A DNA stretch of 58,747 bases, filler included, from Dimargaris cristalligena (lineage: Eukaryota): assembly GCA_003614675.1 (NCBI GenBank). It is 3 parts of 3 records of this genome, joined end to end, with 100 filler letters (N's around TTAATTAATTAA, not from the genome) between each part and the next. Parts side by side here need not be neighbours in the genome. Positions count along the whole stretch, not along the records: positions 1 to 19,610 come from ML002724.1; 2 more parts are not named here. One strand, written 5' to 3'. Of the stretch, positions 13,250-19,610 are shown piece after piece. A program made the translations under genes and the position numbers. The notes beneath the pieces were generated by a model, which was not told the DNA's origin, made no database searches, and was given only the letters and a program-made list of their open reading frames with translations. How positions within the stretch are numbered: the stretch's first letter is position 1; each line of letters opens with the position of its first letter.

Positions 13250-15313
13250 ATGCCCCGCTTACACCGCCCCGAACTTCGGCCGCCTACCCGGTCGTCGCCT
13301 TCGTCGCCACCCGCCCTAGCCACCAAATCTTCACCAGCCCTTGTTTCTACCCTTGGGGTGTCCGACCCTGACGGCGACGACGCTCCACCCCCCTATTCCA
13401 GTCTGTTCGCCGACTCCATCGACCCCACTAAACGTCCCCCACACTCGTCGCCTGCCACCTTCCGCCCCAAGCCCCGTGGCCGGCCCTTTGACTCGTTTGT
13501 CCCCACCCCCACTGCTGCAGAGGCCCCCGCCGCCCTGGCCGATTCCCACTCCACCGTCCCTGTCTCCAACGACCACCTCTTCTACGGTCGCATCCAGGAA
13601 CTCGAGGACCTGGTGTCCTCCGTTCAGCATACGCTTTACTCCCAAACTCGGGCGTACCGGGACGTAACCAGTCAGCTGTCCGAGATAAACCAGGCTCTCT
13701 CCCGTATCCGGCCCCCTAGTCCTGCCGCCGTGGGAGTGGACTCTCCCTTGGAATCTCCTACGCTCCCGGTCGACGCACCCACTACCCCGCTTCCGTCAAG
13801 TAAGCCATTCACCGCCCACTCTACCCCTGGAAAGACCACTCCCCAGGCCAATCATTTAAACGCATATACGGTCAATATCGAGGATGCCAATAATGACGAC
13901 AACGATAACGATGGTGACAACGATGACGATGACGATGATGATGTCCTCCTTCGTACGCTACTAAACGACCTGGATTTATCCTTTACCCCACCACCCACCA
14001 CGCCAACGCCTCGTCCACGAGCCCGAATCACCCGTCCCTCCCCTCCCCTTTCCACTCGGCGGTCTTCACTCGCTGGCGAGCCCGACGATGACGAGGCCTA
14101 CAGTCGCATCAATAACATGCTCCAATCCTTAATCGACAATGCCTCCGAGGCCATTCAAAATACCTCCATGCCCACCTTGGACGCCCAGGACATTGCCCTG
14201 GCCGAAAAGCACGACGAGTACCTTTCCGCCTATGGCAAGCAACTCGCCGTGGCTCGGGCCCCTGGCCTGGGTAGCAGTCCCCACCGTCAAGCCACTGGGC
14301 CGGGCACATCCCCAATGGGCGAGGAGGCCGAGGCCGAATCAACAGTTACGGACCTGGAGGACCTATTAATGGACTCGGACTCCGGCTCCACCTCCGATCC
14401 CCTCGCCACCGACAATGTCGAAGTCCAATTCTGGTGCAAAGTCGTCAAAAAGAGCCAGGTCATTCAAGAGTCGTTGGGTAAATTGCGACCCGGGCGTACT
14501 CCGGCCGAGGACCTAGTTTTGAGCGAACATCAACTACAGAATTCCTTCATGATGCCTCTCATGACGGCTGCATCACCCCACCAGCCCCTCCCGTCGCCCT
14601 TTTCCCCCACCATCTCCGCGAACGCCAAATATTCCAACGACCAATCCCCCACCACCTCCAGGGCTTCCGTCGGCACGCTACGTACTTCCCTTCGCCGCAG
14701 TTTAATTGGTACCAAATTGCCGTTTGATTCATCCCCCGCCCCTAAACACCCCGCCCCCAGTCCTACCGCATCGGCCTATCGGCTACTCCGCCGGCGTCGC
14801 ACGATGCCCACCCGCTCCGACGGCGATTCCACCCTGGCTTCCGTCGCCGCGACCCCCTCAACCGCCGACGACCTAATGATCGCCTCCCTTCGCCGGTCCT
14901 CCGAAGCCGGTGCCCTGGTTGACCTAGCCTACGGTGGGGAAGTGGGTGCTCCCCGCGACACCACCCGTAATTTTGTCACCATGCTATACTGGACCCTATT
15001 GTTTACCATTGGGGCCATTTTGCTGGACTCATTTATTTGCAACGTCGCTGGGCACCAGGTCCTCGGCCTTATTGACCAGATCCACGCTGGTCAGGAGGAA
15101 GGTGGCGACGGAGTGGACTGCATTAGCGACGACGAGTCGGAACGGGAGACCATCGCCAAGGCCCCGTCCCATTTCCCCCTTAACGATGAGGTCGATGCTA
15201 ACCCCATCGTCACGGAACCCTCGGCCGAAGGGTACGACCCATTGCGACATATCATCGATGCCTACCCGTCGGATTTCGAGGATAATCTAATCATCGAGGA
15301 GCTCGAGGAGTAG
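13250..15313 (+). CDS. Uncharacterised low-complexity protein (~687 aa) with a short coiled coil and one C-terminal transmembrane segment
   Basis: Long ORF. First ATG at 13250; the upstream in-frame part is pyrimidine-rich UTR-like sequence. Hydrophobic segment FVTMLYWTLLFTIGAILLDSFI. Confidence 0.8.
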   Translation: MPRLHRPELRPPTRSSPSSPPALATKSSPALVSTLGVSDPDGDDAPPPYSSLFADSIDPTKRPPHSSPATFRPKPRGRPFDSFVPTPTAAEAPAALADSHSTVPVSNDHLFYGRIQELEDLVSSVQHTLYSQTRAYRDVTSQLSEINQALSRIRPPSPAAVGVDSPLESPTLPVDAPTTPLPSSKPFTAHSTPGKTTPQANHLNAYTVNIEDANNDDNDNDGDNDDDDDDDVLLRTLLNDLDLSFTPPPTTPTPRPRARITRPSPPLSTRRSSLAGEPDDDEAYSRINNMLQSLIDNASEAIQNTSMPTLDAQDIALAEKHDEYLSAYGKQLAVARAPGLGSSPHRQATGPGTSPMGEEAEAESTVTDLEDLLMDSDSGSTSDPLATDNVEVQFWCKVVKKSQVIQESLGKLRPGRTPAEDLVLSEHQLQNSFMMPLMTAASPHQPLPSPFSPTISANAKYSNDQSPTTSRASVGTLRTSLRRSLIGTKLPFDSSPAPKHPAPSPTASAYRLLRRRRTMPTRSDGDSTLASVAATPSTADDLMIASLRRSSEAGALVDLAYGGEVGAPRDTTRNFVTMLYWTLLFTIGAILLDSFICNVAGHQVLGLIDQIHAGQEEGGDGVDCISDDESERETIAKAPSHFPLNDEVDANPIVTEPSAEGYDPLRHIIDAYPSDFEDNLIIEELEE

Positions 15314-16462
15314 TCCCACGACAGACGGCTGTTTCCCCACCCCCCACCCCTTTGCTGCCCGGCCCTCGCTCACTATATCACACTGGGTGACTTGTATTAC
15401 TCCCTAACCCTCCCCTCCTTCCACCCTGTAAAAGTCGGTGACCTGGCCTTCGGGCTCCTTGATTCACACCACAGTATGCTGCTTCCTTTAATGTTTCCCT
15501 TTGCTATTCTAATAGATTCGCTTATCCCTTCTTATTTTTATTTTCTATTAGTATTATTATTATTATTATTGCTATCCCTTTACTTTTACGCTACCCCTGT
15601 TTTATTATGTCTGTTTTTAGCTATATGCTTATACGCATCTACTCCCCAATATACATATATGTGCCGGGTATCGTCAGCGCCATAATGGGCGGGTAACTAC
15701 TACCATTGGGTGGCCTACTTCTTTCGATTCCCCTATTTTACGCCTTACCATCAGTTTAATCTCCGATCATGCCGTAATAATGTCTTGACACTTACCCCCC
15801 CCTCCGTTCTTACTCCCAATGTATTTATCTATCCCCCATTTCTATCTAATTAGTACCATTGCGCTGCATCTTGAATAGTCCTGCTGCGGTCAATGTCGGA
15901 TTCGTCCAGGAGCGTATTGGATATAAGAATCAGCAATCGTCGGAATAAAACACGGCGTTTTCACCCTTCGCGCACCTCCAAATCCCCCTCCCTGTCGAAT
16001 TACGTGGTATAAGTAAAGTATATAGTGCACCATACCCCTCGGCAACCTACTATGTAGCATTGGTACAACGTCTATAGTTTATCCTCTTTGTCACTGTTCT
16101 TTATACTATCTTTTTTTTTTCATCGGATATTCGTCGATTAATTAAGTTGGCATTTTTATTGAACCAAAACACCACCACTATAACTAAAACTAAAATTAAG
16201 CGTAATAAAAAAACATTTCGATAAGCGCAAATCATTAGAAGCTGCCCCTCAACGATACGGCTATATCCAGTTACGCACTAATAGGTATAAATCGGAAATG
16301 AATAAGGAAAGTCGCCTATTTAAAAAAATACGGGAGAGGTCCAGTCCAGCTGCAGAACGAATAATTCGTTGAGTGGAACAGGACCAGTATTACGGGCAAG
16401 CAAATAGATGGCTCACTGGCCTATTTTTAAGCTTATTTCGCGCCGTGTATGTTGAAATTGTA

Positions 16463-18065
16463 TTACACGTTATCTTTCGGACACATCAGGTTGGTTGTGG
16501 TCAAGATGGCGACCCGGGTTTCCTGCTCTTCCTTGGTTTTAGCTGTTTTCAATATAGCATTTAGAGCTTGCGTGGACATGACCGCGATACCACTCGTAAG
16601 TAAAGTGGTTGCAATTGCAGTGCCCATGCCTGTGGAGACCGCCGCGCCAGTACCTACCGCCGCTGCCGTACCCACCCCTACTGCCGCTGCCCCTGTCGCA
16701 CCCATCCCTACCGCCGCTGCACCCACCGCACCCGCTCCTACCGCACCCGTCCCTACCGCCGTTTTCGAAAAGAGCCCCGGTGCGATTTTGGTGCCGGCTT
16801 GGGAAATCTTGGCCCCGACCTGCGGGAGGATTTTAGCGCCGACTTTGGAGCCTGCCTGGACCGTTGCCTGTGCGACCTTCGGGGCCACGGCGGATATGGC
16901 CTTCGGGGCGAGCGCGGCGGCGGCTTTCGTAACGACTGCGGCTACAGCTGCGAAGGGAATGAACCGCCGATTTAGCGTTTGGGCGGTCCCGGTCGAAGAA
17001 CTACTACTACTGCTGCTGCTGATGCCTGATTCAGGGCTAAGGGTCATTTGCACTTGCTGAAGCTTCTGATTAATTTTCATTTCAATCAGCTCGCCGATCA
17101 CGTTGGTGCTTTTGGCACTCTGCATGAATTTCTGCAAGGACTCGCCAATCGCGTCCGGGGTGGGTAGCTTATAGGTGACGGAATAGGGGGTATCCGTTGA
17201 GCCGTCGCTGCTGCTCATCGCGTAGCCCAAGGTATCCGTGGCCGCCAAAGGTTCTTGGGTCACGACCACGCCGCCCAACATATACCCGACACCATTATTC
17301 TTAAACTGCGCCCGGTTGAAATCACAAAGGGTTTCTTGAATAATGTTGGCGGCAGTTGGAAACCGTTGCTTAAAAGACGAAAAAAAATCCAGGACGGTTT
17401 GGAAGACTTCGCGGTATTTGAAGGATTCGTCGTTGGCTTGGACGGCCACGGCTTTGGCGGTCGTGTCCGAAACCCCGGCGCTTTGGGTCAAAATAACGGC
17501 CTGTTGTTTGACCTCGACCGGGAGTTCGTCGTACTTTGCCTTGACTATTTCAGACAAGGGTGCCTCCGCTTCGATAACTTGCGGTTCGGTATTAGTGACA
17601 ACACCATTAGCGGCGGTTCCCGGCGTAAGAGGGTCCATCGCGGTCGGATTCTGGCTAGGCCCGGTTGGCCCCAGGTTGGCGTTGGACGGTTGAAAGCCTC
17701 CGGTGGAGCCGGGGCCATAGTTGTTCATTACCGGCGGATAGCCCATGGTCATTATGTCAGGATTTCCACTGTTCGGGTTGAATGGGGGGGCTGTAAAAGG
17801 TGCTCGAGAGTGAGGATGTCCGCTGTGGCGGCTGGTTTTGCTGGCTCTGCTGATTCTGCTGATACTGCTGGTTTTGCTGGTCAGGAACCTCCTCTATATA
17901 CGTTTGATAGCCACCATTGTTGCTCAGTTGCTCGGGATTCTGCGAGAAATTTTGGCCCATGTACTGCGCAGTATCAGTTTGACCCTGCGCGTCACGTGGG
18001 AAAGGACTGGCCGTTGCCATATAGGCGTAGAAGAAAAGCCCCAAGGCTACACGGTGACTGTACAT
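16463..18065 (-). CDS. Secreted precursor protein (~533 aa if repaired), interrupted by a 1-nt frameshift in a C7 run (17784-17790); C-terminal Ala/Gly-rich hydrophobic domain after RR
   Basis: MYSHRVALGLFFYAYMATA signal at 18065, then Gln-rich repeats. Removing one C gives FYSPPFNPNSGNPDIMTMGY, in frame with the 429-aa ORF 16463-17752. Confidence 0.7.
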
Positions 18066-19610
18066 AGTGTTAGTAGACAGGGATTGGATACTGTAGACAC
18101 GGCGGTAAAGATGAGGGTGATAGAACTCTTCAACTGTGGAAGACTCGTTAAGTGAAGGTATTGAATAGTAGTAAAAGATAAACGTATCCCAAGCGCAGGC
18201 TAGTTCGGGAAACGAGGCAGCTAAACTCAAAGGGAGGGATTGGGTAGGGCCTGAGGCTGTTGGACAATAATACGAAAAGGAACAAGGCAGGGAAATACTT
18301 ATCAGCCAAGAGTGCCTCTGGCAAAGTTCCCCAAAAACTTATATATAAATATATATACCGATAAATCAAGTAACGCAGAGAGTCAATAGCAGATATGTGA
18401 AGACAGAAAGCCCAAGAGTAGGGGGCGGAAGGGTCGGTTTATATAAAACGACGGCATTTCCCTATTTCTCTCTATTTTTGGCATCTAATTTCCTCAATTG
18501 CAACGACAGCGCGCCCTCCCTCTTCTCCAGCCCAAATCCACCTTCCCCTTCTCTCCCCTCCGGTCAATAGATACAGATACAAAGTCGTGGCACGGGCACC
18601 ACGACCGCTTTTGTCGACCCTTTTATCTCAACGACCAATAGAAATACAGATACACACATTTTTCTCCCCCTTGGACTTCGACGTCGGCTAAACTGTGAGA
18701 GGAAAAGGAATTAATAAAGGGCCAGCAACCACAAGAAAAGGGCCGACAACCAATGAACAGGAGCCTAGCGAGGCATTCCGGGATGGGGGTTCCGAACCGT
18801 GGATAGCCCAATGAACAGTCACTCAATAATCACCATGAAAGAAAGAAAGGAATAATGAAAGAAGGTGGATATATCGGCTAAACGACGGAAGAAAAGAAGT
18901 TCCATTTATTGATGGTTCCCCTTCGGGTAAAGTAATTAGCTATAGGGACTTTGCTACGCATTTACCTTCACAGTCCGACTCTAAACCAAATACATAACAT
19001 GCAGAGGCGGTATGTCTATTAACGATGTTGGTCAGCTTCGTTGTCGAAAAGGAGGACAGAATGCAGGGAGGAAGGTCGATTATCTTAGAGTGTGGACTCT
19101 TTGTTTTTACATCTAGCGACTATTGGAATCCCGCCCATGAATCTCGTTATAATCGGGAGCCTACGGGAATGTCGATAGTAGTTTGCTTTTAGCTCTTACC
19201 TAAAATAACCGAAAAAGAAAAGTTTGATAGATGTTGCGGTGGTTAAATGTAGACCCCGAAAGGGAACCATAAAGGAATAGAACGGGTCCCGAAGGAGAAA
19301 TGTGGCGCCGATGGTGGGGAGGGAAATTGATGGAGAGCGGCTAGCTCCACTCATCTTCAAACAAGAGTTTGCTTCGCTCACATCTGGCATCTCTATCCCT
19401 TCCTCACCCTTCCTTTTATCTCTAGGGTAAGGGGGATTCGAAGTGGCGGGGGGGGTATGCGGGTCCTTGATACCAACAAATGCCTTTGTCTGTGTGGTTT
19501 GGTTTTCCACCAATGACCATCAACAGGTAGCACTATGTTCACCGAGTTGGCTACGATAAAGGATAAAGAGGAAAGGGAGTGGGTGGGCCATTAGCGGATA
19601 TTTTTCACCC

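What the first reader, a model, noticed from the sequence alone, without database searches (positions are those of the whole stretch)
16463..16969. RR-released cationic amphipathic plus glycine-zipper domain: candidate pore-forming peptide toxin
Seen: after a Ser-rich linker, LNRR is followed by a 166-aa tail. It starts FIPFAAVAAVVTKAAAALAPKAISAVAPK, has Lys-punctuated repeats (VGAKILPQ/VGAKISQ) and no acidic residue until near the end, then a long small-residue zipper (GTGAVGAGAVGAAAVGMGATGAAAVGVGTAAAVGTG) and a hydrophobic helix. The upstream pro-region contains acidic stretches. Established: an acidic pro-piece, a dibasic site and an F-x-P-start amphipathic helix describe many cytolytic/antimicrobial peptides; Candida Ece1 releases candidalysin through Kex2; GxxxG/AxxxG zippers drive membrane oligomers. 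Inference: a novel fungal membrane-active effector held inactive by its pro-domain.
Basis: partly seen in the sequence, partly recalled or inferred. Interest (0 to 1): 0.75.

Follow-up and report, generated by a model that had tools for sequence, protein, structure and literature searches.

The report
Orphan secreted fungal protein, membrane-active tail
A mycoparasitic fungus encodes a secreted protein found in no other organism, with a protease cutting site followed by a positively charged, membrane-seeking tail, which makes it a plausible but untested antifungal toxin.

Summary
The window carries one extra C in a C7 run (17784..17790). Contigs of 4 of 4 sequencing runs lack that base. Without it, ORF 17757..18065 (signal-peptide-like start) and ORF 16463..17752 form one reading frame, matching an intact 530-aa Dimargaris cristalligena protein.

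The only other relative among 1.84 billion representative proteins is a 557-aa paralog from the same species. It keeps the signal peptide, L-x-R-R, the Lys-rich part, the Gly/Ala-rich part and both cysteines.

The Lys-rich 56-67 residues hold one amphipathic helical phase (0 of 5000 shuffles reach it; 8 of 8 Lys on one side).

The "glycine zipper" fails as a motif: 0 GxxxG, and small-xxx-small is not above shuffles. It is a GAVGA pentapeptide repeat.

No family, fold or oligomer evidence was obtained.

Best reading (about 0.4): a kexin-cut secreted protein whose cationic, hydrophobic C-terminal chain acts on membranes, possibly still disulfide-tethered like yeast killer toxins. Activity is untested.

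The parts
16463..18065 (-). Whole single-exon gene (coding sequence with stop). As printed in the window it is split into two frames by one extra C. The intact form would be 533 aa here; it is 530 aa in the other assembly's protein P0005.
   Evidence: two ORFs, frames overlap open. (the paralog P0004 aligns to both ORFs). (intact 530-aa protein, at least 90% identical). (tblastn of P0005: 18065..17775 and 17797..16466). No convincing intron.
17784..17790 (-). C7 homopolymer (G7 on the + strand) holding the one-base assembly error that breaks the frame
   Evidence: table 4: contigs of 4 of 4 runs (3 possibly the source, 1 from another study) leave out 1 letter at 17784; the intact protein reads ..TFYSPPFNPNSG.. 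across it.
18006..18065 (-). Signal-peptide-like N-terminus (aa 1-20, MYSHRVALGLFFYAYMATAS)
   Evidence: 18 of 20 identical in the paralog. Judged by hand (basic n-region, 12-residue hydrophobic core, small residues before the likely cut). No signal-peptide predictor was available.
17877..18005 (-). Conserved acidic N-terminal region of the mature protein (aa 21-63, net -5, one N-x-S sequon)
   Evidence: 30 of 43 identical to the paralog, the best-conserved part after the signal.
17591..17876 (-). Gln/Asn- then Pro/Gly/Asn-rich low-complexity region (aa 64-158 of the intact form; holds the frameshift and a 9-nt CAG/CAA-type tandem repeat)
   Evidence: 44% identity with 43 gap columns against the paralog.
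17030..17590 (-). 187-aa folded-looking domain (helices, then a few strands), net -8, with conserved Cys (ETLCDFN); no known family
   Evidence: 53% identity, 3 gap columns. (secondary structure only; pLDDT 35-43). (no family or look-alike).
16964..17029 (-). Ser-rich linker ending in L-N-R-R, the candidate kexin (Kex2) site; cleavage would fall between 16964 and 16963
   Evidence: It is the only [KR]R in P0005 and is conserved as LKRR in the paralog. Motif definition from PMC8528282 (passages).
16763..16963 (-). 67-aa Lys-rich amphipathic segment (8 Lys, no acidic residue), built of roughly 15-aa units of the type K-h-A-P-x-h-h-x-K, punctuated by Pro
   Evidence: whole-segment hydrophobic moment 0.344; 0 of 5000 shuffles reach it; 0.47 in the paralog. 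(best phase 94 degrees; 8 of 8 Lys on one half; 16 of 19 V/I/L/F on the other).
16622..16762 (-). 47-aa Gly/Ala/Val/Thr repeat ('zipper' of the finding): a GAVGA-type pentapeptide repeat encoded by 15/30-nt tandem DNA repeats; length differs between strains
   Evidence: G spacing 2,3,2,3; 0 GxxxG. (tandem repeats 16638..16759). (3 aa shorter in P0005).
16547..16621 (-). 25-aa Thr/Leu/Ala-rich hydrophobic helix candidate (TAIATTLLTSGIAVMSTQALNAILK)
   Evidence: Predicted helical at low confidence. 52% identical in the paralog.
16466..16546 (-). 27-aa charged C-terminal piece with the second conserved Cys (NLMCPK)
   Evidence: 15 of 27 identical; Cys conserved.

Best explanation
One gene encodes a secreted pro-protein of about 530 aa from the haustorial mycoparasite Dimargaris cristalligena or a near-identical strain. 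Proposed course of events, all inferred from sequence. (1) The N-terminal signal peptide takes the protein into the ER. No later segment is hydrophobic enough to stop in the ER membrane, so the whole chain is translocated. (2) The acidic N-terminal part (net about -12) folds. The two conserved cysteines, one in the 187-aa domain and one five residues from the C-terminus, may form a disulfide that ties the end of the tail back to the domain. (3) In the Golgi a kexin cuts after L-N-R-R in the exposed Ser-rich linker. This gives an acidic chain and a basic 166-aa chain, either free or still disulfide-linked, as in yeast K1-type killer toxins. (4) Outside the cell, the 67-aa Lys-rich, proline-punctuated amphipathic helix lies on an anionic membrane surface. 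The following uncharged stretch of about 70 residues (GAVGA repeat plus Thr/Leu/Ala helix) enters the bilayer and makes it leaky. The likely target is the host fungus at the parasite-host interface, or competing microbes. Shown here: the gene structure, the motifs, their conservation in one paralog and the amphipathic periodicity. Inferred: secretion, cleavage, the disulfide, membrane action and the target.
For: The gene is whole. An extra C in the window is contradicted by contigs of 4 of 4 runs, and an intact 530-aa protein at least 90% identical exists. The signal-peptide-like start is 18/20 identical in the paralog. There is a single [KR]R in 530 aa, placed after a poly-Ser linker and conserved as L-x-R-R. 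This matches the Kex2 preference for P1 Arg, P2 Lys/Arg and P4 Leu (PMC8528282, passages). Charge is split: the pro-part is about -12 and the tail +9. The Lys-rich segment keeps one amphipathic phase over 67 residues (56 in the paralog). 0 of 5000 shuffles reach the moment in each of the three sequences. 8 of 8 Lys lie on one half in both paralogs. An uncharged stretch of 71 residues (68 in P0005, 52 in the paralog, where a single Glu interrupts it) follows. Its lowest summed insertion cost for any 19-23-mer is +2.7 to +3.7 kcal/mol on a recalled, position-independent Hessa-type scale. Kyte-Doolittle means are about 1.5. So it is marginally hydrophobic: too weak for a co-translational anchor, as is usual for parts that insert after secretion. 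There are only two Cys, one on each side of the site, and both are conserved. In K1 killer toxin an interdomain disulfide is described as forming before Kex cleavage and holding the heterodimer (PMC13211469, passages). The organism is a haustorial parasite of other fungi (PMC9866270, passages).
Against: There is no homology to any toxin, antimicrobial peptide, bacteriocin or other family: Pfam, NCBIfam, PDB sequences, the Atlas and 1.84 billion representatives. The canonical glycine zipper is absent, with 0 GxxxG in the window and P0005, and small-xxx-small is not above shuffles. The Gly/Ala part is a tandem-repeat low-complexity tract that varies between strains. That equally suits a structural or self-assembling role. 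The hydrophobic start after RR (FIPFAAVAAVV) is not conserved in the paralog. The tail is 166 aa, far longer than known linear lytic peptides. The best 18-residue hydrophobic moment (0.525) is exceeded by 1.6-5% of shuffles; only the whole-segment coherence is striking. Structure predictions were of too low confidence to use (pLDDT 35 and 43). No signal-peptide or topology predictor was available, and the insertion scale is recalled. The two-member family in one species gives almost no evolutionary leverage.
Confidence: 0.4

Rival explanations
1. It is a surface or organelle protein of the fungus itself. The RR is not cut, or cutting is irrelevant, and the tail is a membrane- or lipid-binding anchor. 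The amphipathic repeats would lie on the membrane (apolipoprotein- or perilipin-like in manner) and the Gly/Ala/Val plus Thr/Leu/Ala stretch would dip in as a hairpin. This would hold the acidic domain at the cell surface, for example at the haustorium.
For: A signal peptide is followed by an uncharged stretch of about 70 residues. If that stretch forms a two-helix hairpin, the C-terminal Cys returns to the same side as the domain Cys. Proline-punctuated tandem amphipathic helices are typical of lipid-surface binders (recalled knowledge). Kyte-Doolittle means of 1.5-1.9 are borderline for a membrane span.
Against: No 19-23-mer has a favourable summed insertion cost; the lowest are +2.7 to +3.7 kcal/mol on a recalled scale. 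The +8 Lys-rich segment would sit on the non-cytoplasmic side, against the positive-inside rule (established knowledge). The conserved L-x-R-R in a Ser linker would pass the Golgi kexin if exposed.
Confidence: 0.2
2. It is a kexin-released self-assembling or surface-active material rather than a toxin. The amphipathic cationic part plus a silk- or elastin-like GAVGA repeat would form films, fibrils or adhesive on aerial hyphae, spores or the appressorium. It would work like Ustilago repellents, in a lineage that has no hydrophobins.
For: The Gly/Ala/Val part is a pentapeptide tandem repeat from 15/30-nt DNA repeats with strain length variation, as is usual for structural repeat proteins. It lacks zipper periodicity. 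The same Kex2 logic applies. That repellents are Kex2-cut and that hydrophobins are confined to Dikarya is recalled, not checked here.
Against: There is only one processing site and one copy of the module, not a polyprotein. The repeat is short (47 aa). The conserved Thr/Leu/Ala helix, the conserved C-terminal piece and the Cys pair suggest a defined fold rather than a bulk material.
Confidence: 0.2
3. It is a young, fast-evolving orphan gene pair with no specific function, or a pseudogene as the window's broken frame suggests. The motifs would then be by-products of low-complexity sequence.
For: The frame is broken in the window. The family has two members in one species. Much of the protein is low-complexity.
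Against: The break is an assembly error, since 4 of 4 runs lack the base. Full-length open frames of 530 and 557 aa are kept in two paralogs at only 50-54% identity. Both paralogs keep the signal, the site, both Cys and the amphipathic phase. The same paralog is annotated in two assemblies.
Confidence: 0.05

Closest known systems
Saccharomyces K1/K2-type killer toxins (ionophoric, Kex2-processed pre-pro-toxins)
   Same: They are secreted by a fungus against fungi. They have a signal peptide and dibasic Kex2 sites at domain borders. In K1 a disulfide made before cleavage holds the two chains together, and hydrophobic helices are thought to act in the membrane (PMC13211469, passages). The protein here has one conserved Cys on each side of a conserved L-x-R-R, and a hydrophobic uncharged stretch.
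   Different: There is no sequence similarity (one search found only self and one paralog). There is one site instead of several, and no gamma piece is removed. The membrane part here is a Lys-rich amphipathic repeat plus a Gly/Ala repeat, which killer toxins lack. The gene is chromosomal in a zygomycete mycoparasite, not on a dsRNA satellite.
Ece1 / candidalysin of Candida
   Same: It is a secreted fungal precursor cut by Kex2 to give an amphipathic, membrane-damaging helix (abstracts of PMC5784256 and PMC12153327 in the listing).
   Different: Ece1 is a polyprotein of short peptides, and candidalysin is 31 aa. Here there is a single site and a 166-aa C-terminal chain. There is no homology.
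Kex2-processed pro-domain (K2PP) effectors of plant-pathogenic fungi
   Same: The layout is signal peptide, N-terminal pro-part, a KR/RR or LxxR motif after disorder-promoting residues, then a mature C-terminal part (PMC8528282, passages).
   Different: K2PP pro-domains are short and unstructured and lie in the first half of small effectors. Here the 'pro' part is about 350 aa with a conserved folded-looking domain, and the 'mature' part is largely low-complexity.
Linear cationic amphipathic helical antimicrobial peptides (cecropin- or dermaseptin-like; recalled)
   Same: They share an acidic pro-piece, a dibasic site, and a Lys/Ala/Gly/Val/Gln-rich amphipathic helix with Pro/Gly kinks followed by a more hydrophobic part. 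Amphipathicity was measured here.
   Different: Those peptides are 20-50 aa and come from animals. This segment is 67 aa inside a 166-aa chain. The resemblance is in composition and is recalled from memory, not tested.
Transmembrane glycine zippers (GxxxGxxxG; Pfam Gly-zipper families; recalled definition)
   Same: It is a Gly- and small-residue-rich uncharged stretch next to a membrane-seeking segment.
   Different: The defining i, i+4 Gly register is absent: 0 GxxxG in the window protein against 2.8 expected from shuffles. No Pfam Gly-zipper family matched even at E up to 10.

Membership tests
Kexin (Kex2)-processed secreted pro-proteins | N-terminal signal peptide | tested here: met
   By hand only: a basic n-region (R5), a 12-residue hydrophobic core VALGLFFYAYMA and small residues just after it. 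18/20 identical in the paralog. No dedicated predictor was available.
Kexin (Kex2)-processed secreted pro-proteins | Cleavage motif: P1 Arg, P2 Lys/Arg, P4 aliphatic (Leu preferred) | tested here: met
   LNRR in the window and P0005, LKRR in the paralog. It is the only [KR]R in P0005. Motif as given in PMC8528282.
Kexin (Kex2)-processed secreted pro-proteins | Site lies in an exposed, disordered stretch | tested here: inconclusive
   It is preceded by a run of 9-10 Ser. The models are too poor to show exposure.
Kexin (Kex2)-processed secreted pro-proteins | Cleavage observed in the native protein | not testable with these tools
   Needs mass spectrometry or an in vitro Kex2 digest.
Transmembrane glycine zipper | Repeated GxxxG in register (GxxxGxxxG or close variants) | tested here: not met
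   GxxxG count is 0 in the window and in P0005 (shuffle means 2.8-3.0) and 2 in P0004. GxxxGxxxG is 0 in all three. G spacing is 2,3,2,3.
Transmembrane glycine zipper | Match to a Pfam Gly-zipper model | tested here: not met
   No such family at E up to 10 for the tail or for either full protein.
Ece1 / candidalysin | Sequence relationship to Ece1 | tested here: not met
   An exhaustive phmmer search found 2 proteins only: self and one Dimargaris paralog.
Ece1 / candidalysin | Several short peptides, each flanked by KR sites | tested here: not met
   One [KR]R site in P0005 and two in P0004, of which only one is shared.
Linear cationic amphipathic lytic peptides | Net positive charge with an amphipathic helical period | tested here: met
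   +8 with no acidic residue in 67 aa. 0 of 5000 shuffles reach the moment. 8 of 8 Lys on one half.
Linear cationic amphipathic lytic peptides | Short free peptide (about 12-50 aa) with shown membrane activity | not testable with these tools
   The chain after RR is 166 aa and has no further dibasic site. Activity needs an assay.
K1-type killer toxins | Sequence or fold relationship | tested here: not met
   No hit by sequence. The fold could not be compared because the models had pLDDT 35-43.
K1-type killer toxins | Two chains from Kex2 cleavage, held by an interchain disulfide | tested here: inconclusive
   The precondition is met: there are exactly two Cys, one on each side of the site, and both are conserved. 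The bond itself is not testable here.
Integral membrane protein with stop-transfer anchor | A segment hydrophobic enough for translocon insertion | tested here: not met
   The lowest summed cost of any 19-23-mer in the three tails is +2.7 to +3.7 kcal/mol, on a recalled position-independent scale. This is rough, so it is weak evidence.

The most novel reading that the evidence does not exclude
The protein would be the first ribosomally made, kexin-activated membrane-permeabilising protein of a zygomycete mycoparasite. It would be a two-chain 'killer-toxin-like' molecule of a wholly new sequence family. Its acidic domain would target or mask, and its Lys-rich 15-residue amphipathic repeats plus GAVGA stretch would open the host fungus's membrane at the haustorial interface, either to kill or to make the host leak nutrients.
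Probability: 0.3. Interest if true: 0.75.

Novelty: new variant of a known kind. Interest (0 to 1): 0.45.

Why it matters
Almost nothing is known about the molecules that haustorial mycoparasites of the Zoopagomycota use on their fungal hosts. In the searches made here, no paper in the held library dealt with this protein. One search listed 8 of 9 papers, none on it by title or abstract start. One search found the locus-tag prefixes in no relevant paper. Only the ten best-ranked rows were seen. If the tail is membrane-active, it would add a new sequence class to the short list of fungal protein or peptide toxins made through Kex2 (killer toxins, candidalysin). It would also give a lead for antifungal peptides aimed at Mucorales. 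If it is instead a surface-active or anchoring module, it would still be a new solution in a lineage without hydrophobins. Practically, the finding corrects a gene model: the 427-aa database protein is a truncation caused by a homopolymer error.

Tried and rejected
1. An intron to join the two frames. Enumerating GT..AG pairs that restore one open frame gave no donor or acceptor of good fungal form. This was rejected in favour of the one-base error shown and the collinear protein.

2. Family searches gave nothing usable.
- Pfam. The best hits were DUF3783 at E 0.15 and HN at E 0.02, both far under their cut-offs.
- NCBIfam.
- PDB sequence profile: best E 1.1.
- ESM Atlas, domain and tail. No usable feature hit; TM at most 0.36 on a model of pLDDT 0.38.

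3. Homolog searches.
- Word-seeded search of 5.8 billion proteins with the whole protein.
- The same search with residues 55-255.
- The same search with the two-paralog profile.
- Exhaustive phmmer over 1.84 billion representatives.
- Together these found only self and one paralog. Searches scored only the 8000 candidates sharing most words.
- Metagenome contigs: 232 pattern matches, none confirmed.

4. AlphaFold2. The whole 429-aa ORF with a 2-row alignment gave pLDDT 34.9. The domain alone with 3 rows gave pLDDT 42.7. Both are too poor, so no fold search was run.

5. Oligomer prediction of the tail, 4 copies: no verdict (score 0.00, the tail's own fold uncertain, my alignment not used). This is no evidence either way.

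6. RNA evidence: no RNA holder listed.

7. Whole genome: none held, so paralogs and a Kex2 gene could not be sought in the genome. No second copy lies in the window.

8. Earlier findings of this scan: nothing.

9. Ideas considered and dropped.
- A GPI anchor: the C-terminus is charged, not hydrophobic.
- A class I fusion-protein-like layout (cleavage site followed by a hydrophobic peptide): no heptad-repeat region, and the hydrophobic start is not conserved in the paralog.
Full report
**What is in the sequence**

The finding lies on the minus strand. ORF 16463..17752 (429 aa, P0001) reads a low-complexity start, a domain of about 190 aa and a run of serines. Then comes L-N-R-R (Arg codons at 16969..16964) and exactly 166 further residues to the stop at 16465..16463. 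In the tail the first acidic residue is number 145, and the net charge is +9. The part before RR is acidic, about -12 summed over the regions.

Five bases upstream of the ORF's ATG, another minus-strand ORF ends (17757..18065). It is in a different frame and starts MYSHRVALGLFFYAYMATAS. Both frames are open across 17760..17890.

The only relative found (P0004, 557 aa) aligns to the upstream ORF (64% over 97 residues). It also aligns to the downstream one (39% over 487 columns including the low-complexity parts; 50% by MAFFT). The switch between the two alignments falls at a run of seven C (17784..17790).

Laying the contigs of four public runs on 16300..18300 showed one letter left out at 17784 in 4 of 4 runs. 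Three of these runs may be the source of this DNA, and one is from another study. A protein at least 90% identical to the window's, named hypothetical protein H4R33_003136 of Dimargaris cristalligena (P0005, 530 aa), reads straight through..TFYSPPFNPNSGNPDIMTMGYPP...

No good intron explains the shift. So the broken frame is a homopolymer assembly error, and the 427-aa database protein (P0002) is a truncated model. The true product here would be 533 aa from one exon, 16463..18065.

**Organism and family size**

The neighbours are ordinary eukaryotic genes: UGGT, inositol-1-phosphate synthase, RhoGAP, RabGAP, a GDS1-like gene and NUDIX.

An exhaustive phmmer search of 1.84 billion representative proteins gave 2 hits at E up to 0.001: self and P0004. 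P0004 carries names from two D. cristalligena assemblies. P0005, the near-identical copy of the window's protein, comes from one of those same assemblies. P0004 is therefore a paralog in the same species, not an ortholog.

The other searches added nothing:
- three word-seeded searches;
- a metagenome scan, with 232 pattern matches and none confirmed;
- a tblastn of the window.

Whether other Dimargaritales have the gene is open. Their low-coverage genomes exist (PMC9866270, passages read), but I could not search them as DNA.

**Anatomy**

Coordinates are those of P0005; identities are to the paralog.

| Residues | Part | Identity and charge |
|---|---|---|
| 1-20 | signal-peptide-like start | 18/20 |
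| 21-63 | conserved acidic piece | 30/43, net -5 |
| 64-158 | Gln/Asn then Pro/Gly/Asn low complexity | 44%, many gaps |
| 159-345 | domain predicted as helices followed by strands | 53%, net -8, holds Cys247 |
| 346-367 | Ser linker ending LNRR | 9/16, net +2 |
| 368-434 | Lys-rich segment | 8 Lys, no acid |
| 435-478 | Gly/Ala/Val/Thr repeat | 28/43 |
| 479-503 | Thr/Leu/Ala-rich hydrophobic segment | 13/25 |
| 504-530 | charged end with Cys525 | 15/27 |

The LNRR is the only [KR]R in the whole protein. The paralog has LKRR at the same column, plus one unshared FRRP. The two cysteines are the only ones in the protein, and both are conserved.

(a) Amphipathic cationic segment: upheld.
- The hydrophobic moment of the whole 67-residue segment peaks at 94-95 degrees per residue (period 3.8). 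Its value is 0.344 in the window, 0.341 in P0005 and 0.47 in the paralog's 56 residues.
- 0 of 5000 composition-preserving shuffles reach the observed value in any of the three sequences.
- At that single phase, 8 of 8 Lys fall on one half in both paralogs. In the window protein, 16 of 19 Val/Ile/Leu/Phe fall on the other half.
- Lys spacing alternates 8 and 7, and Pro recurs about every 15 residues. The segment is thus a set of roughly 15-residue, proline-punctuated amphipathic units, the last being K-I-A-P-x-L-F-x-K in both paralogs.
- Local 18-residue moments are less remarkable: the maximum is 0.525, reached by 1.6-5% of shuffles.

(b) Glycine zipper: not upheld as a motif.
- The uncharged 71-residue stretch has 0 GxxxG against 2.8 in shuffles, and 0 GxxxGxxxG.
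- It has 22 small-xxx-small against 19.9 in shuffles; 1189 of 5000 shuffles reach 22.
- The looser pattern [GAS]xxxGxxx[GAST] occurs 10 times against 5.0 expected, and 37 of 5000 shuffles reach 10. In the paralog it is not enriched (7 against 5.8).
- Gly spacing is 2,3,2,3, a GAVGA pentapeptide repeat. It is encoded by 15- and 30-nt tandem DNA repeats at 16638..16759.
- The repeat is 3 aa shorter in P0005. A second-study run has no contig across 16542..16724, so that difference could not be checked independently.
- No Pfam Gly-zipper model matches.

**Is the tail an anchor?**

Kyte-Doolittle 19-residue means reach only 1.4-1.9. On it, the cheapest 19-23-mer in the tails costs +2.7 to +3.7 kcal/mol. 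On this rough measure no segment should stop in the ER membrane, so the chain would be fully translocated and secreted. The +8 segment would also be on the wrong side for a conventional anchor, by the positive-inside rule (established knowledge). This is weak evidence but points to a secreted protein.

**Mechanism proposed**

Kex2 is described as requiring Arg at P1, preferring Lys then Arg at P2, and preferring Leu at P4 (PMC8528282, passages). Both paralogs fit exactly, after a linker of disorder-promoting serines.

I therefore read the protein as a kexin-processed secreted precursor. Its C-terminal chain would bind membranes through the Lys-rich amphipathic repeats and insert its marginally hydrophobic, uncharged 70 residues.

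One conserved Cys lies on each side of the site. The two chains may therefore stay linked, as described for K1 killer toxin, where the interdomain disulfide is said to form before Kex cleavage (PMC13211469, passages).

The producer is a haustorial parasite of Mucorales and some Ascomycota (PMC9866270, passages). That makes the host fungus's membrane the obvious target. None of secretion, cleavage, disulfide formation or membrane action has been shown.

**What speaks against it, and the rivals**

- No homology or fold evidence links the protein to any toxin.
- The Gly/Ala part behaves like a variable structural repeat.
- The hydrophobic start after RR is not conserved in the paralog.
- The chain is much longer than known lytic peptides.

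The rivals are:
- a self surface protein whose tail is a lipid or membrane anchor (0.2);
- a kexin-released self-assembling or surface-active material (0.2);
- a functionless orphan (0.05). The intact, conserved paralogs and the read evidence argue against this one.

**Structure and complex predictions**

These gave nothing usable. AlphaFold2 gave pLDDT 34.9 and 42.7. The four-copy tail job returned no verdict. For that reason no fold search was run.

**Novelty and verdict**

The kind of molecule, a Kex2-processed secreted fungal protein with a membrane-seeking part, is known from killer toxins, candidalysin and K2PP effectors. The sequence family, the 15-residue Lys/Pro amphipathic repeat joined to a GAVGA repeat, and its occurrence in a zygomycete mycoparasite are new. 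I file it as a new variant of a known kind.

Function remains a hypothesis at about 0.4. Interest is 0.45.

Noticed in passing
window 17784..17790: The assembly has one G too many in a G7 run on the + strand. Contigs of 4 of 4 runs have one fewer. This splits a 533-aa gene into two ORFs and explains a truncated 427-aa database protein.
   Followed up: yes
window 16807: A run from a second study reads A instead of T, changing Ile to Phe in VGAKISQ. The same Phe is in protein P0005. The change keeps the hydrophobic character of that repeat position.
   Followed up: partly
window 16622..16762: The Gly/Ala/Val repeat differs between the window and P0005: it is 3 aa shorter in P0005, with GAAAVGMGATGAAAV against GAGAVGAGAAAV. 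The second-study run has no contig over 16542..16724, so a true strain difference cannot be told from repeat collapse.
   Followed up: partly
window 16449..17060 (+): A 203-aa antisense ORF rich in Ala/Pro/Thr overlaps the tail. It is most likely a mirror effect of the GC-rich repeat codons rather than a gene.
   Followed up: no
window 13250..15313 (+): The neighbouring 687-aa ORF has long Pro/Ser/Asp-rich low-complexity stretches, a hydrophobic segment near its C-terminus and no Pfam match.
   Followed up: no
window 17831..17881: A 9-nt tandem repeat (5.7 copies) encodes the QQNQQ-type stretch of the same gene. The paralog has a shorter, different Gln-rich piece there.
   Followed up: no
window 18016..18300: Contigs of all four runs break at about 18016..18045, just inside the start of the gene. 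Word depth changes several-fold on the far side (for example 432 to 1336 in X4, and 394 to 57 in X1). This suggests a repeated or variable sequence in the promoter region.
   Followed up: no
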